Positions 50,787-57,650 of a stretch of 60,846 nucleotides of DNA are shown here, one piece after another (position 1 is the stretch's first letter; the number at the start of each line of letters is the position of its first letter). Where the stretch lies: assembly GCA_043742725.1 (NCBI GenBank), contig JAYTXX010000097.1, forward strand, positions 1-60,846, read 5' to 3'. Source of the stretch: Bacteroidota bacterium. Lineage in GTDB: Bacteria > Bacteroidota > Bacteroidia > 2-12-FULL-35-15. The notes under the pieces are model-generated. The model was not told the DNA's origin, did no database searches, and was given only the letters and a program-made list of their open reading frames with translations. The position numbers and the translations under genes are program-made.

Positions 50787-50957
50787 AAAAAGAACAAAAA
50801 ATATTCAATAATATAACAAAAAATAGCTGGAAATTAAGTGCTAATAAAAACTATTTAAAACTTTAATTTTTTCAACAAAAATTTTCGCAATTGCAATAAA
50901 ATCAAGCTGTTGTTATTAACACTCCAAACTGCATAATAATAGCACAAAGCATTGAAG

Positions 50958-50965
50958 TATATTTG
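50958..50965 (+). promoter_or_regulatory. Candidate -7 promoter box (TAnnTTTG) for the SMC-like operon
   Basis: tatatttg lies 32 nt upstream of the ATG at 50997, within a 210-bp AT-rich gene-free leader. Confidence 0.3.
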
Positions 50966-50996
50966 AATATCAAACAAAATTTGAAACAGATATACA

Positions 50997-53678
50997 ATGC
51001 TTACAAGAATCTCTTTAATAAATTCTAAAGGTTACGGCAAAGCCGAACTAAAATTAGATAATTGCGACTCATTGCAATTGGTTGGTCCAAATAACATTGG
51101 AAAAAGTACATTGATTTATGCACTTAACTTTTTATTTGTTGTTGATGGACAAAAAATGTCGTTTAGCGGACAACGAAAGGGCGACAAAGAAACCATTCAC
51201 CATTATTTTCCTACACATAACAAAAGTTTTTTGGTTTTTGAAATCAATAAAATGGGATACTATTGTATTCTTGTAAAACGTAATACTGATGGGGAGTTGG
51301 AGTATTACAAAATAGATAGCGAATATAATGAAGAATACTTTTTTGAAAACGAAGGAACGCATCAGCGTTTGAGAAATTTTGATGAAACACTTGCTTTGTT
51401 TATTGAGAAAGGAATTGGGCATAGCAAGTTTGCAACAAAAACAGATGTGTTCAATCATGTTTATCATCGCGGAGTAAAAAATAATGCAGTTGTATGGTTG
51501 GAAGATACCGTGAAAGCTGATGGTTTGAGTAATAATTTTTCTAAAGTCTATCGTTATTTAATCAACTCAAAATTGATTACAAACAAAACACTAAAAGAAT
51601 CATTGATTATTGCTGATAACAGAGAAAATGAGGGACTAAATTTTTCGCAAAAAAATAAAAAAGACATTATTGATTTGTTGCGAATTAATGAAGAAATAAA
51701 AAGTGTAAAATCTGTACGTACCGATTTTCTTGAGTTTAGAGAGTTAGTGAAAATGTACAATTCAAAAACAAAAATTGTTGGTGAATTAATTTCTGCATTT
51801 AATACTTCATACACAGCAGCTATTCCAGAATTGGAAATTTCATCGGTAGAAAGAGGAAGACACATTGCTGCAGTTCATAATGAAATTAATGAAATACTGA
51901 AACCAAAAGAATTAAATTTCGCATCATACATAGGTGAAAAAAATGCAGAAATAAAGAACAAGACCAATTTACTTGGTGAGAAACAACACGAGCTAAATGA
52001 AATTAATAAATACGAATCAATTGATTTTTTGAAAGAATCGTTGCGCAATTTGGATAAGGAACGTAAAGAAATTGAAACGCGCATTACTACGATTGAAACT
52101 CAAAAATTATCGAGCAAACATTTGGAATTTCGTTTGGAAAAATTGAACGATAAAATTGCAGCAGTTGAAAATCAAATTGAAAATTACAACAACCTTTTGA
52201 TTCATAAAATTTCGGATAACGAAAAAACAAAACAGCTTTTAAATGCAATACTTTCGGAGCAAGTAATGAGTTTGCCAAGCAAGCAAATTAAAAAACCAAT
52301 CAAAAAATTATCGGACAAATTGTTGAATATTTTTGATGGTGAAATTGATATTTCAAAAGGTTTGGAATTAACAGAATTTCGTTCGGTTAAAGAATTGAAA
52401 GATGAATTGAAAACATTACAAGCGGAGAAAAAACAAACGGAAGAACTTTTGAAAACAGTTGTTGATAAAGAAAAAATCGATTTTAAATTGAAAAGTATTC
52501 TTGGCGAAATTGAAGTTATCAAAGAAAAAATAAAAGGTATTGAAACAAAACCTCAATTGGAAAGGGCAATTAAGGGCATTGTTGAAGAAATAAAAAATTT
52601 CACGGAAGATAAAAAAGAGTTGGAATTACATTTGAACGAATTGGTGAAGGAAATTTCGGGCAAACAAATTATGCTTGATAAATTGAATGAAGAAAAACGC
52701 AATTTTGAAACGCGCATTAGAGAATTAAAAGAACGTAAATTTGAAATTGAATCCATTGATGTAGAACCTTCGGAATATGAAACGAATGATAATTTGGATT
52801 ATATCTATTCAAAAATTCAAATTCATCAAAAAGATAGAATAGAGCTGAAAGCCAAGAAAGACGCTACTTTTGATAATTTGAAATATCGTTTGAGAAATAG
52901 TAGTGCAGATGAAGAACAATTTATTTTGTTTGTAGAAGAAGAAATTGCTTGCTTGTCTGACAAAGAAAGAAGTATTGATGGTTTGTTGCAAAGTATCTCT
53001 ACTCAATTTGCAAATCCTGCATACACATTACTCAAACGCTACGAAGAGTTCAAACAATTTGTATATAACAAGTTCAACGAAAAACTTTCAAAGACTCGTA
53101 TTTCAAATATTGAATCAATGAAAATTGAATTGCTAGATAACGAACGAATTATTGGCGAATTGAAAAAAATCGCTTCTATTCAGGAGTTCAACGGACAAAT
53201 GAGTTTTGAATTTGACCAATCCGAAAATTTAAAAATATTAAATACCTATTTGGATACAGGGAAAAAAGTAAGTTTTGATGAATTATTTAACATCGAATTA
53301 TTACTTCACATTCAAGGAACTGATAAGCGTGTGGACTTGGCAAATCAAGTAGAATCGGATGGTACCGACCGAATGATTCGTTTGGTAATGATTATGTCAA
53401 TCATCAACCGATTGGCAGTAACCGATGCGCAAAATAAAATTGCATTGTTCATTGATGAGGTTGCAACCATTGATAAACAAAACCGTCCAGAGCTTGTGAA
53501 GTTTTGTAAAGAACATAATTTCATTCCAATTTTTGCGGCACCCGATGCAGTTGAAGGATTTAATAAATACTATTTTATTTATCCATCAAAAGGAAAAATA
53601 AATATCAACGAAAAACAAAATGCTGTAATTGTTGAACGAAACGGAGTGGTGGAAAAACCTATTGCTAAAAAGAATTAG
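50997..53678 (+). CDS. SMC/MukB/JetC-like coiled-coil ATPase
   Basis: 893 aa. Walker A GPNNIGKST (aa 30-38, nt 51084-51110). About 400-450 aa of K/E/L/I heptad-rich sequence with a short central break. Signature-like ESDGTDRM (nt 53352-53375), Walker B ALFIDE (nt 53439-53459) and D-loop ATID. Confidence 0.75.
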   Translation: MLTRISLINSKGYGKAELKLDNCDSLQLVGPNNIGKSTLIYALNFLFVVDGQKMSFSGQRKGDKETIHHYFPTHNKSFLVFEINKMGYYCILVKRNTDGELEYYKIDSEYNEEYFFENEGTHQRLRNFDETLALFIEKGIGHSKFATKTDVFNHVYHRGVKNNAVVWLEDTVKADGLSNNFSKVYRYLINSKLITNKTLKESLIIADNRENEGLNFSQKNKKDIIDLLRINEEIKSVKSVRTDFLEFRELVKMYNSKTKIVGELISAFNTSYTAAIPELEISSVERGRHIAAVHNEINEILKPKELNFASYIGEKNAEIKNKTNLLGEKQHELNEINKYESIDFLKESLRNLDKERKEIETRITTIETQKLSSKHLEFRLEKLNDKIAAVENQIENYNNLLIHKISDNEKTKQLLNAILSEQVMSLPSKQIKKPIKKLSDKLLNIFDGEIDISKGLELTEFRSVKELKDELKTLQAEKKQTEELLKTVVDKEKIDFKLKSILGEIEVIKEKIKGIETKPQLERAIKGIVEEIKNFTEDKKELELHLNELVKEISGKQIMLDKLNEEKRNFETRIRELKERKFEIESIDVEPSEYETNDNLDYIYSKIQIHQKDRIELKAKKDATFDNLKYRLRNSSADEEQFILFVEEEIACLSDKERSIDGLLQSISTQFANPAYTLLKRYEEFKQFVYNKFNEKLSKTRISNIESMKIELLDNERIIGELKKIASIQEFNGQMSFEFDQSENLKILNTYLDTGKKVSFDELFNIELLLHIQGTDKRVDLANQVESDGTDRMIRLVMIMSIINRLAVTDAQNKIALFIDEVATIDKQNRPELVKFCKEHNFIPIFAAPDAVEGFNKYYFIYPSKGKININEKQNAVIVERNGVVEKPIAKKN

Positions 53679-53686
53679 AGTAATTT

Positions 53687-54880
53687 ATGAAAGCAGAACC
53701 AAGAACCATACTGCGCTTTTTGCTTGAGTATTTTGATGTAGTAAATGATTTGTACGAAATTCAACTTACACAAGGCGTAATTGCGTACGAATCGTTAAAT
53801 CAAGTTACCACAAAGCATAATAGCGATATCAAATCACAATTGATTGACTATAAAATTATTGTGAGTGTGAATGATAATTTTGAAATTCGAACGGTTTATT
53901 TCAACTTAATTGAATTTATATTAAGTGAATTTAAACCAATGTTGCCCGAAACGATTGAGAAATATCACGTTTCGATTGCAGAATTGTTTCGTAAAATCAA
54001 AGAAAATATTAAAGGCGATAAAGTAATTTTAAACCAACGATTGAGTGATTTGGCAAATGAAATTCGCACGTTTTACGAAATGGTTGAAAAAAATACCATT
54101 AGTTTATTGAACGAAACACGAGAATTAAAAGCCAATGTAAAGAAAATTGATTACCGCGAAAAAATTGTTCGAGCATCGCGTTGGATTGACGAATACATTA
54201 TTCCATTGAATAAAATTTTGGACATCAATCATAGCACATCTATTGCAAATAAATTGTACGATATTTCGGAATATTCAAATAAATTTCGTTTGAATTTTGA
54301 TGAAGAATCATCGCGTGTGTTGTTTGAAAAGCTTTATTTTCAATTGATTCAGGTGAATGATAATTTATTGCGTCAATCAAAAATTTTGACAAATGAGTTG
54401 CTTCCATTGATTGAACGCATAAGAACGGAATCAATTATTTTAACAGGTTGGATTACTTTCTTAAAAAATCCATACAAGCGCAAAGTGCCAAAATTATTGA
54501 AGCGCAAAGAAGTTTCGATTTATTCGCCAAGCACATTTTTTAATGCTGCAGAAATGTTTGAGCAATTTAAAAATGATACCGATATTTATTTTGAAGAAGA
54601 AGAAGTGGATTCGGAAAAATGGATTTTTGATAAAGAACATTACTCCAAAAAATTAAAAGAAAGTTTACCTGTAGATAATTTTTTTAAATGGTGTAGCAAA
54701 ACATTAAAAGAAGATTACAAAAAAACAGAAATTGAAAAATTCTTTGCACTTACAAGTTTGGCTTTTGATGAAGAAATTCAGTTGGAATATGCTACCAAAG
54801 CCGAGTTTGACAAAATTAAAATTAACGATTTAACATTAACAGTTCCTAAAATAAAAATGAATCAACATGGAATTTCCTAA
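53687..54880 (+). CDS. Helical protein of unknown function in the kleisin (MksF/JetA) position
   Basis: 397 aa, 8 nt after the ATPase stop, with no TM segment and no catalytic motif recognised. The kleisin assignment rests on context and size only. Confidence 0.35.
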   Translation: MKAEPRTILRFLLEYFDVVNDLYEIQLTQGVIAYESLNQVTTKHNSDIKSQLIDYKIIVSVNDNFEIRTVYFNLIEFILSEFKPMLPETIEKYHVSIAELFRKIKENIKGDKVILNQRLSDLANEIRTFYEMVEKNTISLLNETRELKANVKKIDYREKIVRASRWIDEYIIPLNKILDINHSTSIANKLYDISEYSNKFRLNFDEESSRVLFEKLYFQLIQVNDNLLRQSKILTNELLPLIERIRTESIILTGWITFLKNPYKRKVPKLLKRKEVSIYSPSTFFNAAEMFEQFKNDTDIYFEEEEVDSEKWIFDKEHYSKKLKESLPVDNFFKWCSKTLKEDYKKTEIEKFFALTSLAFDEEIQLEYATKAEFDKIKINDLTLTVPKIKMNQHGIS

Positions 54881-55394
54881 TCATCACCGACAAATTGTAG
54901 AAGATTTATTAAGTGGAAAATTTATTTTACCACAAGAACGAACGTATCAAGTATTGAAAGAAAACGAACCTTCATATTCTTATTTTTTCAAAGCATCATT
55001 CAATTATGAATTGCGACTCACGCAAGATTACGCTTATGTAGTTTCAGACGAATCAAACGAAATGCTCTCTCGCGATGTGTGTATTTTTATTGCATTGTTG
55101 AGCTATGAATTGGATAGAGATGGAAAAAATTTCTTGGAAAGAATTCAGTTTAGTGAATTTGAAATGGAAGAAATTGAAAATTATTTTACCAATTCATCTT
55201 ACATTGATTTGATTTTATCAAACAAACAATTGAAAGATGCAGATGCTCGTAAAAACTTTATCAATACGCTAAACCGCAGAAATATTATTGAAAAAACTGG
55301 AGATAATCGTTTTGTATTTACTTCGGCACATAAATTTTTTATGGATTTTGCAAGTGATATTGTGAAGTACGAAAATGCCGAAAAGGAAAATTAA
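54867..55394 (+). CDS. MksE/JetB (DUF4194)-like small subunit
   Basis: 175 aa, overlapping the upstream gene by 14 nt. IVEDLLSGKFILPQE..TYQVL......YFFKASFNYELRLTQDYAYVVS parallels the LLKGVVY...GLELxLDExEGYAFL pattern of MksE/JetB. Recognised by eye only. Confidence 0.5.
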   Translation: MEFPNHHRQIVEDLLSGKFILPQERTYQVLKENEPSYSYFFKASFNYELRLTQDYAYVVSDESNEMLSRDVCIFIALLSYELDRDGKNFLERIQFSEFEMEEIENYFTNSSYIDLILSNKQLKDADARKNFINTLNRRNIIEKTGDNRFVFTSAHKFFMDFASDIVKYENAEKEN

Positions 55395-55417: not shown

Positions 55418-55439
55418 AAGGGACGAAAGTCCCTTTTTT
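55418..55439 (+). terminator. Rho-independent terminator closing the triad operon
   Basis: aagggac gaaa gtccctt followed by tttt (GAAA tetraloop hairpin), 24 nt after the stop at 55394. Confidence 0.8.
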
Positions 55440-55521
55440 ATTATTGAATAAGCAAATCGAGTATTTGTTTTTGTAACTTCGCCTCAATTTATTTTTCATT
55501 CATACATTTTAATTTCCTTTC

Positions 55522-56690: not shown

Positions 56691-57650
56691 CTATTCCGTT
56701 TCTTTTTCAAAAGTGCCTTCAGTAATATTTTTTCCGTCTTTATAAAAATAAATTCCTCCCCACGAATATTCTTCTTTTTTATAAATATATGCTGTGCCAT
56801 CAATGGTAACAGTTACTATGGTTAGTTTTCTTCTGTCTTCTTGTATAATTTTTTCCTCAATATTTTTGTTTGTTGGCTTTTTAGCAACAACAGGTTCTAT
56901 CACTTTTGGTTTTGGTTTTTCCACAATAGGAGGAGGTTCTACTGGTTTTGGTTTTGGTTTTTCAGCAACAGGAGGAGTTTCCACTGGCTTTTCTTTCGGT
57001 TTTTCTGGCTCCGATTTATATTCAGGTTGTTTCACCACAATAGGAATAGGATTGCTTGGTGCTTGTGTAGCCAATGTTGGTGGAGGTGTTACAGGTCTTG
57101 GATTTGGTTCAGGTGGTTTTGGTTTAGGAATAGGAGTTGCTTCTGCTTTTTTTTGCATTTCCAATGCAGTAGCGGTGTAATCTTTATCAAATCCAAAATC
57201 TCCCGATTCAAGTTCATATTTAATTCTTCCAACAGGTTGCGAATAGGTAACAACAGATTCTTCTGGTTGTTTGGTAAGTTCTACTTCAGCAGTAAATTTT
57301 GCAAAATCTTCCTTTTCTCTATCCGTAGGAATGTGCGTATCAACTGTTATAGCTTTGCTAATAAAACCCATTTTTGTACAAGAAAAAACGTATTCAGCAT
57401 TTAAATCCAAATCAACATTGTATTTTCCTCCACTTGGGTCAATCACTCTGTATGGCATCCCATTTTTGGTAATAGTAACCAATGCATGTTTTAAATCACC
57501 ATCTTTTACAGTAAGTTTAAATTTGAGGGTAAATTTTGGTGCATCTAAATCCTGTGCCATTGCGCCATTGCCAAGTGTGGCAAGCATAAACACGAGTGCA
57601 ACCAAAAATTTGCGATAAAAAAAGTAAAATTTATTTTTATAATGCATCAT
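56691..57650 (-). CDS. Secreted protein with a Pro/Lys/Glu-rich repeat linker
   Basis: 319 aa with a signal peptide (ATLGNGAMAQ) and an N-terminal beta-rich domain. The linker PKPKPPEPNPRPVTPPP...EKPVETPPVAEKPKPKPVEPPPIVEKPKPK precedes a small C-terminal domain. Confidence 0.6.
   Translation of the reverse strand: MMHYKNKFYFFYRKFLVALVFMLATLGNGAMAQDLDAPKFTLKFKLTVKDGDLKHALVTITKNGMPYRVIDPSGGKYNVDLDLNAEYVFSCTKMGFISKAITVDTHIPTDREKEDFAKFTAEVELTKQPEESVVTYSQPVGRIKYELESGDFGFDKDYTATALEMQKKAEATPIPKPKPPEPNPRPVTPPPTLATQAPSNPIPIVVKQPEYKSEPEKPKEKPVETPPVAEKPKPKPVEPPPIVEKPKPKVIEPVVAKKPTNKNIEEKIIQEDRRKLTIVTVTIDGTAYIYKKEEYSWGGIYFYKDGKNITEGTFEKETE
56904..56987. repeat. Tandem imperfect repeat of about 42 bp inside the Pro-rich coding region
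   Basis: tttggttttggtttttccacaataggaggaggttctactgg is followed directly by ttttggttttggtttttcagcaacaggaggagtttccactgg. On the minus strand these encode PVEPPPIVEKPKPK / PVETPPVAEKPKPK. Confidence 0.7.

What the first reader, a model, noticed from the sequence alone, without database searches (positions are those of the whole stretch)
50997..55394. Reordered, nuclease-less SMC / kleisin-sized / MksE-like three-gene module (miniature Wadjet-MksBEF relative) inserted between mtaB and lgt
Three + strand genes are translationally coupled (an 8-nt gap, then a 14-nt overlap). They sit between two housekeeping genes, bounded by a 210-bp gene-free AT-rich leader with a TAnnTTTG box and by a clean GAAA-loop terminator.

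Gene 1 (893 aa) is an SMC/Rad50/MukB-type split ATPase head: Walker A GPNNIGKST, then signature-like ESDGTDRM, Walker B ALFIDE and D-loop ATID, interrupted by a long coiled coil.

Gene 3 (175 aa) reads like MksE/JetB (DUF4194): LLSGKFILPQE...FFKASFNYELRLTQDYAYVVS, compared with the LLKGVVY...GLELxLDExEGYAFL pattern.

Gene 2 (397 aa, helical, no catalytic motif visible) occupies the kleisin slot.

Three things are unusual:
- The order is ATPase-kleisin-KITE rather than the canonical mksF-E-B / jetA-B-C.
- All three proteins are clearly shorter than typical JetC/JetA/JetB.
- No JetD/MksG Toprim nuclease gene exists anywhere in this 60 kb.

It could be a compact condensin-like complex, or a DNA-sensing defence module. 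In the second case the effector would be absent, encoded elsewhere, or hidden in the 397-aa protein.
Basis: partly seen in the sequence, partly recalled or inferred. Interest (0 to 1): 0.8.

Follow-up and report, generated by a model that had tools for sequence, protein, structure and literature searches.

The report
Compact Wadjet-type SMC operon lacking nuclease
This is a three-gene operon for a small MukBEF/Wadjet-type DNA-handling (SMC) complex whose ancestors carried a DNA-cutting nuclease gene between the first two genes; the nuclease was deleted, repeatedly in different lineages, while the other three genes stayed under very strong selection, so a plasmid-defence machine was probably turned into a nuclease-free chromosome-handling complex.

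Summary
Three coupled + strand genes (893, 397 and 175 aa) lie between mtaB and lgt. They have their own position-conserved TAnnTTTG promoter box and a GAAA-loop terminator.

All three subunit assignments hold:
- g1 folds like MukB/JetC.
- g2 folds like the kleisins MukF/JetA.
- g3 is a full-length member of Pfam MksE (PF21980), which genuine E. coli MukE also matches.

The gene order now has an explanation. More distant relatives of the same three families are four-gene operons, B-G-F-E, where G is a ~260-300 aa JetD-type Toprim nuclease between ATPase and kleisin. The most distant branch is canonical F-E-B-G inside a defence island. Deleting G from B-G-F-E gives this window's B-F-E. One relative (L076) keeps G intact, a close sister (L074) has a ~610-nt internal deletion of it, and others keep only its leader. 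A tree implies at least 4-5 independent losses.

The nuclease-less triad is intact wherever contigs allow in 80 species-level Bacteroidota loci. It is under stronger purifying selection (omega about 0.02) than mtaB, sits among housekeeping genes, and is absent from the plasmid and phage collections.

Most likely function (inferred): a nuclease-free, condensin-like loop-extruding complex. Verdict: new variant of a known kind.

The parts
50787..50996 (+). 210-bp AT-rich (22% GC) leader between mtaB and g1
   Evidence: In some relatives this interval holds an extra DUF7793 gene.
50958..50965 (+). TATATTTG, a Bacteroidota-type TAnnTTTG (-7) promoter box 39 nt upstream of the g1 ATG
   Evidence: the same motif lies at -27 to -39 in 48 of 61 orthologous loci, against 0.04 expected by chance. 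That it acts as a promoter is inferred from general knowledge of Bacteroidota sigma-A promoters.
50997..53678 (+). g1, a MukB/JetC-type SMC-like ATPase of 893 aa ('B'). Layout: N-head 1-155, coiled coil 218-395, small Cys-free apex about 396-473, returning coiled coil 474-697, C-head 705-870.
   Evidence: AF2 model with mean pLDDT 71. Foldseek top five hits are MukB, E 2e-17 to 2e-11, followed by Rad50 and JetC. hhalign to the E. coli MukB N-head gives E 2e-4 and to the C-head gives 4e-5.
51084..51110 (+). Walker A / P-loop, GPNNIGKST (residues 30-38)
   Evidence: G30 P31 N32 N33 G35 K36 S37 T38 are invariant in 37 sequences.
52182..52415 (+). Apex or mini-hinge region of g1 (residues 396-473). 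It contains the invariant FDG (446-448) and has no cysteine, so no zinc hook.
   Evidence: pLDDT is only 52-64 and there is no MukB_hinge Pfam hit, so its role as a dimerising hinge is inferred.
53352..53474 (+). C-head catalytic motifs: signature-like ESDGTDRM (786-793), Walker B ALFIDE (816-821) and D-loop ATID (823-826)
   Evidence: E786 S787 D788 G789 T790 D791, D820 E821 and T824 I825 D826 are invariant. The Walker B to IFAAPD stretch aligns with MukB LLFLDEA...IIAAPE.
53679..53686 (+). 8-nt g1-g2 spacer. This is the position where relatives carry the JetD-like Toprim gene 'G', so it is the scar of the deleted nuclease gene.
   Evidence: B-G-F-E order in L167, L168/169, L170 and L076. L074 has a relic and L067/069/073 keep only the leader. 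54 of 80 loci have a spacer of 40 nt or less.
53687..54880 (+). g2, a MukF/JetA-type kleisin of 397 aa ('F'). Layout: N-terminal winged-helix-like domain 5-81, helical bundle 86-260, disordered linker 267-310, C-terminal helix + beta domain 316-393.
   Evidence: AF2 model with mean pLDDT 69.5. Foldseek hits: MukF 9gm7_C 5.8e-5, JetA 8q72_E 3.2e-4, MukF 7nz2_C1 4.6e-4, JetA 9qxt_E 2.2e-3. There is no sequence-level link to any Pfam kleisin family. Relatives carry the newer PF28010.
54867..55394 (+). g3, a MukE/MksE-type KITE subunit of 175 aa ('E'). Its start overlaps the end of g2 by 14 nt.
   Evidence: Pfam PF21980 MksE at 3.2e-22, covering 2-161 of 163 profile positions. E. coli MukE hits the same model at 6.8e-51.
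55418..55443 (+). Intrinsic terminator: 7-bp stem AAGGGAC/GTCCCTT, GAAA loop, then a T-run

Best explanation
SHOWN: The locus is a self-contained operon with its own conserved promoter box and terminator. It encodes the three core subunits of a compact MukBEF/Wadjet-group SMC complex:
- g1, a MukB-like ATPase with short (~180-residue) coiled-coil arms.
- g2, a MukF/JetA-like kleisin.
- g3, a MukE/MksE KITE protein.

SHOWN: The same three protein families occur in more distant relatives as four-gene operons. Those operons carry a JetD-type Toprim nuclease gene (G) either between B and F (B-G-F-E) or, in the most distant branch, after B (F-E-B-G), and they sit next to defence genes. In the window's lineage G is gone and only 8 nt separate g1 and g2. 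Related lineages show the intact gene, an internally deleted relic and leader-only remnants, and the phylogeny requires several independent losses. After the loss, B, F and E stay intact, keep every catalytic ATPase residue, and evolve under very strong purifying selection among housekeeping genes.

INFERRED:
- By analogy with MukBEF and JetABC structures, a g1 dimer is bridged at its heads by g2, and g2 binds g3 dimers.
- ATP binding and hydrolysis drive DNA entrapment and loop extrusion.
- With no nuclease to fire, the complex acts on DNA topologically (compaction, organisation or segregation of the chromosome) rather than by cutting it.
- It is therefore a domesticated, condensin-like derivative of a plasmid-defence Wadjet, parallel to MukBEF and the nuclease-less MksBEF of Pseudomonas and mycobacteria.

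My confidence in the identity and evolutionary origin is about 0.9. My confidence in the condensin-like function is about 0.5.
For: Anatomy.

Subunit identities:
- g1: Foldseek top hits are MukB at E 2e-17. hhalign to both MukB head halves is positive. Catalytic residues are invariant.
- g2: kleisin domain layout with MukF/JetA as the top four PDB hits.
- g3: PF21980 at 3.2e-22, the family that E. coli MukE also hits at 6.8e-51.

Ancestral nuclease:
- L167 is B(880)-G(269)-F(398)-E(176), next to a helicase and Cas9-Cas1-Cas2.
- L168/169 are B-G(267)-F-E, and this G passes the Pfam JetD_C cutoff.
- L170 is G-F-E.
- L165 is F-E-B(934)-G(298). Its G hits PADLOC JetD1 at 8.3e-11, its E hits JetB1, and ZacC lies upstream.
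- The G proteins are mutually homologous, and the ATPases are full-length g1 homologs at 6e-63 and 4.5e-32.
- The Toprim E and DxD residues are invariant in G.

Loss caught in progress:
- L076 has an intact G.
- L074 has a 54-codon relic, and its flanks are 96% and 88% identical to L076 at the DNA level.
- L067/069/073 keep only the leader.
- The tree places L076 inside 100%- and 99%-supported clades of G-less lineages.
- No G homolog exists elsewhere in the window or in any flank.

Retention and constraint:
- The triad is intact and in the same order wherever contigs allow in 80 species-level loci, drawn from 242 species that encode a g3 relative.
- No fourth gene is conserved next to it.
- Omega is 0.015-0.021 for g1-g3 against 0.048 for mtaB in unsaturated pairs, and 0.016-0.029 in lineages that lost G recently.
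- dN is equal to or lower than that of the housekeeping neighbours.

Context:
- The ten nearest neighbours hit no defence model.
- The window is ordinary chromosome.
- GC is 30.1% in the triad and 31.5% in the window.
- There are no plasmid or phage homologs.

Precedent: nuclease-less members of the Wadjet group with chromosomal roles are known (PMC7617805; PMC11329512 and bioRxiv 10.1101/2020.05.18.101659).
Against: - No experiment or complex prediction was possible, so assembly of g1, g2 and g3 and loop extrusion are inferred from homologous structures.
- Both AF2 models are of moderate confidence (mean pLDDT about 70). The Foldseek TM-scores are low (0.24-0.34), as expected for elongated multi-domain chains but still a caveat. 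The apex or hinge of g1 is poorly modelled and matches no hinge family.
- I could not test whether these genomes also carry Smc-ScpAB or a JetD-like gene elsewhere. A nuclease acting in trans is therefore not excluded beyond the 60.8-kb window and the +/-10 kb flanks.
- The triad is not universal. Two contigs with MtaB 83% identical (L087, L089) lack it at this site. More distant relatives have an empty mtaB-lgt junction. Flanks differ in the 50-65% identity clade. A patchy, relocating distribution is also typical of accessory systems.
- Recurrent loss of G could in principle reflect selection against autoimmunity, with B-F-E keeping a non-cleaving defensive role.
Confidence: 0.6

Rival explanations
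1. It is still a defence module. The B-F-E complex senses small circular or foreign DNA by loop extrusion, as JetABC does. It then either recruits a nuclease encoded elsewhere in the genome or restricts plasmids without cutting them, for example by compaction, silencing or blocking segregation, in the manner of Smc5/6.
For: - The family's deeper branches are genuine Wadjet-like systems with JetD, located in defence islands.
- Distribution is clade-restricted and the triad has relocated: there are empty sites and different flanks.
- One lineage (L076) still has G in an otherwise near-identical operon.
- Presence of a nuclease elsewhere in the genome could not be tested.
Against: - No JetD-like gene lies in the window or within +/-10 kb of 78 of the 80 loci.
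- No defence genes are among the nearest neighbours.
- In characterised Wadjet/MksBEFG systems the nuclease is the executing part (PMC10123090, listed).
- Omega of about 0.02, lower than for mtaB, and near-constant protein lengths over saturated dS are unusual for arms-race genes.
- There are no plasmid or phage copies.
Confidence: 0.25
2. It is a DNA-repair SMC-like complex of the Rad50/SbcC or RecN type, tethering or processing DNA ends, with g2 and g3 as novel accessory factors.
For: Rad50 (7zr1) is the sixth-best structural hit for g1 at E 5e-11. Some database sources label homologs 'SbcCD ATPase subunit'.
Against: - MukB outranks Rad50 by six orders of magnitude.
- There is no zinc hook, since the apex has no cysteine.
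- No Mre11/SbcD-type nuclease gene is adjacent.
- The partners are a MukF/JetA-fold kleisin and a MukE-family KITE protein, which define the Muk/Wadjet group and not Rad50 or RecN.
Confidence: 0.03
3. It is a Lamassu-type abortive-infection system (LmuB SMC + LmuC + LmuA effector).
For: g1 has a weak structural match to LmuB (9uxh_F, E 5.6e-3). One unlocated ORF elsewhere in the window hits a PADLOC LmuA model at 2.9e-11.
Against: - The LmuB hit ranks 38th, far behind MukB and JetC.
- g2 and g3 hit no LmuA or LmuC model.
- g2 has a MukF/JetA fold.
- The LmuA-like ORF is more than 6 kb away and not among the ten nearest neighbours. It is not conserved next to the triad.
Confidence: 0.02
4. It is a decaying remnant of a Wadjet system that lost its nuclease and no longer has a function.
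For: Loss of G is recurrent. A few loci show split g1 ORFs or an insertion between g1 and g2 (L056, L060, L036).
Against: - All three ORFs are intact in nearly every locus, with invariant catalytic residues.
- Omega is about 0.02 in G-less lineages, including those that lost G recently.
- A conserved promoter box is maintained.
Confidence: 0.02

Closest known systems
Wadjet / JetABCD (= MksBEFG, EptABCD), types I-III
   Same: - It has the same three core components: SMC-like JetC/MksB, kleisin JetA/MksF and KITE JetB/MksE.
- g1 and g2 match JetC and JetA structures.
- Deeper branches of the very same protein families carry a JetD-type Toprim gene and sit in defence islands.
   Different: - There is no JetD/MksG here or in 78 of the 80 related loci.
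- The order is B-F-E (from B-G-F-E) rather than A-B-C-D / F-E-B-G. No BFE or BGFE order is listed in the Burmann et al. operon catalogue as held.
- Proteins are about 20% shorter (893/397/175 aa against about 1080-1130/440-490/190-240 aa).
- PADLOC Jet models do not recognise g2 or g3, and touch g1 only at the P-loop.
- The context is housekeeping and purifying selection is very strong.
MukBEF (E. coli and relatives)
   Same: - It is a nuclease-less member of the same group with a chromosomal role (PMC7617805).
- MukB is g1's best structural match, and both head halves align by profile.
- MukF is g2's best structural match.
- MukE and g3 both belong to PF21980.
   Different: - MukB is 1486 aa with a PF16330 hinge and long arms. 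g1 is 893 aa with a ~75-residue apex that matches no hinge family.
- None of the Muk-specific Pfam models (MukB N-terminal, MukF KicB/M/C, MukE PF04288) hits g1-g3.
- The order is mukF-E-B.
- MukBEF partners such as MatP, AcpP and Topo IV were not examined here.
Nuclease-less MksBEF condensins (Pseudomonas aeruginosa MksBEF; mycobacterial MksB)
   Same: These are three-gene Mks systems without MksG that act in chromosome organisation alongside Smc-ScpAB (bioRxiv 10.1101/2020.05.18.101659 and PMC11329512, abstracts). They are the closest functional analogy for a conserved, nuclease-free triad.
   Different: - They are different sequence families: those MksE/MksF proteins are the DUF4194/DUF3375 type, whereas g3 gives no DUF4194 hit and g2 gives no Pfam hit.
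- Gene order and size differ.
- Here the nuclease-containing ancestor, and intermediates of its loss, can be seen directly.
Lamassu (LmuACB) and Rad50/SbcCD
   Same: Both have an SMC-like ABC ATPase with coiled-coil arms, and g1 gives weak structural hits to both.
   Different: The partner proteins are of the kleisin and KITE type, not LmuA/LmuC or Mre11/SbcD. There is no zinc hook. The hits rank well below MukB and JetC.

Membership tests
MukBEF-like (Mks / Wadjet) group of SMC complexes | SMC-type ATPase with a MukB/JetC-type split head joined by an antiparallel coiled coil | tested here: met
   The AF2 model has the right topology. The Foldseek top five hits are MukB (2e-17 to 2e-11), and JetC appears from rank 8. 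hhalign to the MukB N-head gives 2e-4 and to the C-head 4e-5.
MukBEF-like (Mks / Wadjet) group of SMC complexes | Intact Walker A, signature, Walker B and D-loop motifs | tested here: met
   The motifs are at residues 30-38, 786-793, 816-821 and 823-826. Their key residues are invariant across 37 sequences down to 55% identity.
MukBEF-like (Mks / Wadjet) group of SMC complexes | Dimerising hinge at the apex of the arms | tested here: inconclusive
   A ~75-residue globular apex (396-473) with an invariant FDG exists. However, its pLDDT is 52-64 and it gives no PF16330 hit. Dimerisation cannot be tested here.
MukBEF-like (Mks / Wadjet) group of SMC complexes | MukF/JetA-type kleisin: N-terminal winged helix, helical middle domain, flexible linker, C-terminal winged helix | tested here: met
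   The top four PDB hits are MukF and JetA, aligned over the full length, E 5.8e-5 to 2.2e-3. The evidence is structural only, because no sequence-level match to kleisin families exists.
MukBEF-like (Mks / Wadjet) group of SMC complexes | MukE/MksE/JetB-type KITE subunit | tested here: met
   PF21980 at 3.2e-22 and 80 bits against a cutoff of 27, over the full length. E. coli MukE hits the same model at 6.8e-51.
MukBEF-like (Mks / Wadjet) group of SMC complexes | The three genes form one co-directional operon | tested here: met
   The genes are separated by an 8-nt gap and a 14-nt overlap. The unit is conserved in all 80 loci wherever contigs allow.
MukBEF-like (Mks / Wadjet) group of SMC complexes | Physical assembly of B2-F2-E4 and ATP-dependent DNA entrapment or loop extrusion | not testable with these tools
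   No multimer prediction or experiment was available.
Wadjet defence system sensu stricto (JetABCD / MksBEFG) | JetD/MksG Toprim nuclease encoded in the operon | tested here: not met
   JetD is absent from the window and from 78 of the 80 loci. It is present in the relatives L076, L165, L167, L168/169 and L170.
Wadjet defence system sensu stricto (JetABCD / MksBEFG) | Recognised by curated JetA/JetB/JetC models | tested here: not met
   In PADLOC, g2 and g3 give no Jet hit. g1 gives only a JetC1 P-loop hit at 4.8e-4.
Wadjet defence system sensu stricto (JetABCD / MksBEFG) | Location in a defence island or on a mobile element | tested here: not met
   The ten nearest neighbours hit no defence model. 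The flanks are housekeeping genes. There are no flanking repeats and no plasmid or phage copies.
Wadjet defence system sensu stricto (JetABCD / MksBEFG) | Restriction of circular plasmids | not testable with these tools
   This needs transformation or conjugation assays.
MukBEF sensu stricto | Matches to the Muk-specific families: MukB N-terminal PF04310, hinge PF16330, MukF PF03882/PF17192/PF17193 and MukE PF04288 | tested here: not met
   None of these appears for g1-g3 at E up to 1. All of them appear for E. coli MukF, MukE and MukB.
Lamassu (LmuACB) | LmuB SMC with an adjacent LmuC and LmuA effector | tested here: not met
   g2 and g3 give no LmuA or LmuC hit. The structural hit to LmuB ranks only 38th. 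No effector gene is adjacent.
Housekeeping condensin (functional class) | Clade-wide vertical conservation under purifying selection in a non-defence context | tested here: met
   Caveats: two fairly close contigs lack the triad at this site, and the site is empty in more distant relatives.
Housekeeping condensin (functional class) | Effect on nucleoid organisation or segregation, and relationship to Smc-ScpAB in the same genome | not testable with these tools

The most novel reading that the evidence does not exclude
This Bacteroidota triad may be an independent domestication of a plasmid-cutting Wadjet system into a nuclease-free chromosome-organising condensin, and one that can be observed in progress. 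The complete series is still present in nature: defence-island F-E-B-G, then permuted B-G-F-E, then an internally deleted nuclease relic, then leader-only remnants, then a clean 8-nt junction. The nuclease was lost at least 4-5 times while B, F and E stayed under omega of about 0.02. If so, it offers a natural, minimal system (893/397/175 aa) for asking what distinguishes an SMC immunity complex from an SMC chromosome organiser, which is the transition proposed for MukBEF.
Probability: 0.4. Interest if true: 0.8.

Novelty: new variant of a known kind. Interest (0 to 1): 0.62.

Why it matters
SMC complexes of the MukBEF/Wadjet group either organise chromosomes (MukBEF, some MksBEF) or destroy plasmids (JetABCD). 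How one becomes the other is an open question.

This locus belongs to a compact subfamily that I could not find described in the searchable literature. It is unrecognised by PADLOC's Jet models. It also falls at or below the size filters of the largest published operon survey, which required MksF of at least 400 aa and MksB above 890 aa.

Within one small family, both states and the intermediates between them can be seen, and the core complex is retained under very strong constraint after each nuclease loss. That makes three things directly testable:
- Whether the core JetABC-like motor has a nuclease-independent cellular function.
- Which residues or surfaces change after the nuclease is lost.
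- Whether a complex with arms only about 27 nm long (inferred from the model) can still extrude loops.

On the practical side, these genes are mostly annotated 'hypothetical'. In addition, the short names shown for the newer Pfam families (PF28010 'MksB' for the kleisin-like protein, PF28007 'MksF' for the ATPase) appear swapped relative to the structures.

Tried and rejected
Approaches that gave nothing:
- Sequence searches of g1, g2 and g3, and of their profiles, against PDB sequences gave only coiled-coil or chance hits.
- NCBIfam gave nothing useful.
- hhalign of the g3 and g2 profiles against single E. coli MukE and MukF sequences was uninformative, with probability below 1%. The MukE link came instead from both proteins hitting PF21980.
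- The Pfam scan of the most distant members of the g2 family found no link to DUF3375/MksF.
- Literature searches for MksE/MksF/MksBEF with Bacteroidetes or Flavobacterium, for the Pfam accessions, and for Wadjet + Bacteroidetes + JetD found no description of this system.
- The sigma-70 promoter scan was at chance level, 29 sites against 26.5 expected, so I ignored it.
- The repeat search at the junctions found no insertion scars.
- The first dN/dS estimate was compromised by saturated dS. I repeated it with closely related pairs.

I solved this by pruning rows.

Hypotheses considered and rejected:
- Lamassu. The LmuA-like ORF in the window is not adjacent, and g2 and g3 are not LmuA or LmuC.
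- Rad50/SbcC. There is no zinc hook and no Mre11-type partner.
- An effector hidden inside g2. Its fold is entirely kleisin-like and has no extra domain.
- A mobile-element insertion. There are no repeats, integrase or GC shift.

Full report
**1. Observation**

The g1 stop is followed by 8 nt before the g2 ATG, and g2 and g3 overlap by 14 nt.

The upstream gene has UPF0004 + Radical_SAM domains, so it is an MtaB/MiaB-type methylthiotransferase. The downstream gene is LGT. The 210-bp leader has 22% GC and carries TATATTTG at 50958-50965. The terminator AAGGGAC-GAAA-GTCCCTT plus T-run lies at 55418-55443.

The promoter box is not a chance match. A TAnnTTTG motif lies 27-39 nt upstream of the g1 ATG in 48 of 61 orthologous loci, including loci only 55-60% identical in protein, against 0.04 expected per window. 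The sigma-70 consensus scan was at background level and tells us nothing for this phylum.

**2. What the three proteins are**

g3 is the easiest. It matches Pfam PF21980 'MksE' over the full length (3.2e-22, 80 bits). To calibrate that family I scanned the genuine E. coli MukE, which hits PF21980 at 6.8e-51 in addition to its own PF04288. g3 is therefore a sequence-level member of the MukE/MksE family. It gives no hit to DUF4194 (JetB) or to PADLOC JetB models.

g1 matches only P-loop families by HMMER. A few homologs carry precomputed PF12128/DUF3584 (the JetC/MksB type) and the newer PF28007. An AlphaFold2 model built on 37 homologs (mean pLDDT 71) has these parts:
- N-terminal head half, residues 1-155.
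- Outgoing coiled coil, 218-395.
- Small cysteine-free apex, about 396-473.
- Returning coiled coil, 474-697, with two breaks.
- C-terminal head half, 705-870.

Foldseek against the PDB returns MukB as the five best hits (2.3e-17 to 2.1e-11), followed by Rad50, JetC and eukaryotic SMCs. Independently, the g1 profile aligns with the whole N-terminal head of E. coli MukB (residues 2-251 against 7-263, E 2e-4). It also aligns with the Walker B to 'IIAAPE' segment of the C-terminal head (E 4e-5).

g2 has no sequence-level relative in Pfam, PADLOC, NCBIfam or the PDB. An exhaustive profile search of 1.84 billion representatives finds only 126 clusters, and all full-length members are 390-427 aa. 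Its AF2 model (mean pLDDT 69.5) has the kleisin layout:
- N-terminal winged-helix-like domain, 5-81.
- Helical bundle, 86-260.
- Disordered linker, 267-310.
- C-terminal helix + beta domain, 316-393.

Its four best PDB matches are MukF (9gm7_C, 5.8e-5; 7nz2_C1, 4.6e-4) and JetA (8q72_E, 3.2e-4; 9qxt_E, 2.2e-3), aligned over the full length. TM-scores are low (about 0.25), as expected for flexible multi-domain chains. The assignment therefore rests on Foldseek probability, on the ranking and on the domain order.

**3. Distribution, synteny and selection**

A scan of one genome per GTDB species with a g3 alignment found relatives in 242 species. The 80 loci fetched are all Bacteroidota MAGs.

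In every locus the contig allows, g1-g2-g3 are present in the same order. Lengths are nearly constant, at 880-895, 394-406 and 173-191 aa. Clustering all flanking ORFs showed no fourth gene family conserved beside the triad.

In the close clade (57 loci), mtaB usually precedes the triad and lgt follows at variable distance. In the 50-65% identity clade the flanks are unrelated.

For an unbiased presence/absence test I anchored on MtaB in metagenome contigs:
- The triad follows mtaB in five contigs with MtaB at least 80% identical.
- It probably follows in a sixth, L082, after a 3-kb insertion.
- It is missing at this site in two, L087 and L089.
- In more distant relatives (L092, L140), mtaB, lgt and the IMPase gene are directly adjacent.

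So the triad was indeed inserted between mtaB and lgt in an ancestor of this clade. It is clade-restricted rather than universal. No repeats or GC shift mark the junctions.

Selection is very strong. Against the close clade, dN is 0.094 for g1, 0.128 for g2 and 0.076 for g3. The comparison values are 0.106 for mtaB, 0.230 for lgt and 0.160 for the IMPase gene (dS is saturated). In unsaturated pairs (dS below 1), median omega is 0.016, 0.015 and 0.021 for g1, g2 and g3, against 0.048 for mtaB.

Other context points the same way:
- The family is absent from the plasmid and phage collections.
- The ten nearest neighbours hit no defence model.
- The window is ordinary chromosome, with MutL, a TPP enzyme, YfhO, T9SS cargo and similar genes.

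**4. The missing nuclease and the odd gene order**

The decisive evidence came from the neighbourhoods of progressively more distant members of the g2 family.

*Most distant branch.* The order there is the canonical F-E-B (L162, L164, L166). In L165 it is F(419)-E(207)-B(934), followed by a translationally coupled 298-aa gene. That gene hits PADLOC JetD1 at 8.3e-11. The L165 E subunit hits JetB1, and the upstream gene is ZacC (1.5e-134), so this system sits in a defence island.

*Intermediate branches.* A ~260-270 aa gene sits between the ATPase and the kleisin:
- L167 is B(880)-G(269)-F(398)-E(176), next to an AAA_11/12 helicase and Cas9-Cas1-Cas2.
- L168/169 are B-G(267)-F-E, and this G passes the Pfam JetD_C threshold (26.5 bits against a cutoff of 22).
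- L170 is G-F-E.

*Homology of the parts.* The four G proteins are homologous to each other: L076 against L168 gives 6e-38, L167 against L168 gives 1.5e-23, and L167 against L165 gives 5e-13. They share an invariant Glu in '(F/I)VEN' and a DxD in 'GDxDxxGL', which is the Toprim signature. The best PDB sequence hits are small Toprim proteins. The ATPases of L167 and L165 are full-length g1 homologs (6e-63 and 4.5e-32).

*Consequence for gene order.* B-G-F-E is a circular permutation of F-E-B-G. Removing G from it gives exactly the B-F-E order of this window.

*The loss can be seen directly:*
- L076, one of the 80 genome loci and 57-59% identical to the window's proteins, has an intact 260-aa G gene between g1 and g2.
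- Its close sister L074 has a 434-nt spacer. The 3' 163 nt are 96% identical to the end of L076's G plus the junction to g2. An upstream 122 nt are 88% identical to L076's leader plus the first ~30 nt of G. L074 is therefore L076 with a ~610-nt internal deletion, leaving a 54-codon relic (tblastn 1.6e-19).
- L067, L069 and L073 keep only repeated copies of the leader.
- 54 of the 80 loci, including the window, have a spacer of 40 nt or less.
- A profile of G finds no other copy in 2.4 Mb of window plus loci, searched on both strands.

*Number of losses.* I built a neighbour-joining tree of concatenated g1+g2+g3 (1452 columns, 100 bootstraps), rooted on L167. It nests L076 inside a 100%-supported subclade of G-less lineages. 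That subclade lies inside a 99%-supported G-less clade, and the window's clade is on the other main branch. If G is ancestral, it was lost at least four or five times. Lineages that lost it recently still have omega of 0.016-0.029 for B, F and E.

**5. How it most likely works**

*Shown:*
- The subunit folds.
- The intact catalytic motifs.
- The operon structure.
- Descent from a JetD-containing operon.
- Recurrent nuclease loss.
- Strong constraint on the remaining three genes.
- The housekeeping context.

*Inferred by analogy with MukBEF and JetABC structures* (PMC7617805 and the PDB entries):
- g1 dimerises at its apex.
- g2 bridges the g1 heads (C-terminal winged helix on the cap, middle domain on the neck) and probably dimerises through its N-terminal domain.
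- g3 dimers bind the g2 linker.
- ATP turnover drives DNA entrapment and loop extrusion.

With no nuclease, the output is topological. The most economical reading is a condensin-like role on the chromosome. This parallels MukBEF and the nuclease-less MksBEF/MksB systems of Pseudomonas and mycobacteria.

The main rival is that B-F-E keeps a defensive role, either with a nuclease encoded elsewhere or without cutting DNA. The patchy, relocating distribution also fits it. Against it stand several points:
- No JetD lies within 10 kb in 78 of the 80 loci.
- The context is non-defence.
- Omega is lower than for a housekeeping neighbour.
- In characterised systems the nuclease is the executing part (PMC10123090).

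The Rad50/SbcC, Lamassu and 'decaying remnant' readings are rejected.

**6. Comparison with what is known, and novelty**

Nuclease-less members of the Wadjet group are recognised (PMC7617805), so the kind is known. This subfamily differs in several respects:
- Sequence families. PADLOC Jet models miss it, and only newer Pfam entries cover it.
- Size. It is about 20% smaller than conventional Bacteroidota Wadjet operons.
- Gene order. B-G-F-E and B-F-E are absent from the Burmann et al. catalogue as held, which lists FEB, FEBG, GFEB, BEF and BEFG.

That survey required MksF of at least 400 aa and MksB above 890 aa. This triad sits at or below those limits.

Public records call g1 and g2 'hypothetical'. 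Only recent PGAP annotations name g3 'condensin complex protein MksE'. I found no paper describing the system.

I rate it a new variant of a known kind. The added value is a visible series of nuclease loss with retention of the motor.

**7. Limits**

- Both structure models are of moderate confidence, and the apex (hinge) of g1 is unresolved.
- No complex prediction or experiment was possible.
- Co-occurrence with Smc-ScpAB, and the presence of jetD elsewhere in the genomes, were not testable.
- The tree is a distance tree on a limited sample.
- L076 is a 3.8-kb contig, so its wider context is unknown.

Noticed in passing
L162, L164, L165, L166 (relatives); applies to g1 50997-53678 and g2 53687-54880: The tool's newer Pfam labels print PF28010 as 'MksB' on the ~400-aa kleisin-fold protein (the g2 family) and PF28007 as 'MksF' on the ~900-aa ATPase (the g1 family). 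By the usual nomenclature (MksB = SMC ATPase, MksF = kleisin) and by the structures found here, these short names look swapped. If so, that could propagate into annotation.
   Followed up: partly
window 1-44900 (exact ORF not located): One ORF of at least 180 aa, lying more than 6 kb from the triad, hits a PADLOC LmuA (Lamassu effector) model at 2.9e-11. Other ORFs give single generic hits (PDC-M48B, RTasMBL, CARF3, ZorB through an OmpA/MotB domain). None of them is among the ten genes nearest the triad.
   Followed up: partly
g1 residues 158-212 = window 51468-51632: This segment (RGVKNNAVVWLEDTVKADGLSNNFSKVYRYLINSKLITNKTLKESLIIADNRENE) is among the most conserved parts of g1, with many invariant residues. 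It aligns with MukB 'SKFYRLIEASL...'. Yet AlphaFold gives it a pLDDT of only 32-39, so it may be a partner- or DNA-induced fold.
   Followed up: no
L036:4300-8818: A 4.5-kb insertion carrying two large ORFs (318 and 1149 aa) with signal-peptide-like N-termini separates g1 from g2 in this relative. The tight g1-g2 coupling is therefore not obligatory.
   Followed up: partly
L056:190-2804 and L060:6005-8666: g1 is split into two or more ORFs in these two MAG loci, and g3 is truncated in L056. This could be pseudogenisation or an assembly or frameshift error.
   Followed up: no
L001:5081-5482, L084:11435-12185, L082:12173-12577, L087:11427-11825: A small DUF7793 gene (about 130 aa; two tandem copies in L084) lies between mtaB and g1 in 17 relatives. 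It is absent from the window's 210-bp leader. In L087 it follows mtaB even though the triad is missing there.
   Followed up: no
L067:8573-8818, L069:8683-8818, L073:8399-8818, versus L076:1104-1245: The g1-g2 spacers of these G-less loci consist of one to four repeated copies of the ~90-nt leader that precedes the JetD-like gene in L076. Tandem duplication of the leader therefore accompanies the nuclease loss.
   Followed up: partly
L167:11853-20171; L165:1-1191; L162:1110-2624: The nuclease-containing relatives sit beside defence genes:
- L167 is beside an AAA_11/AAA_12 helicase and Cas9-Cas1-Cas2.
- L165 is beside ZacC.
- L162 is beside a ThiF/JAB protein.
This contrasts with the housekeeping context of the window's triad.
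   Followed up: partly
window 56691-57650 (- strand): A 319-aa protein with a long Pro/Lys/Glu-rich repeat region and no Pfam hit lies between lgt and the IMPase gene. It is conserved at 45-55% identity in relatives, but is absent from the empty-site contigs L092 and L140, where lgt and the IMPase gene are adjacent.
   Followed up: no
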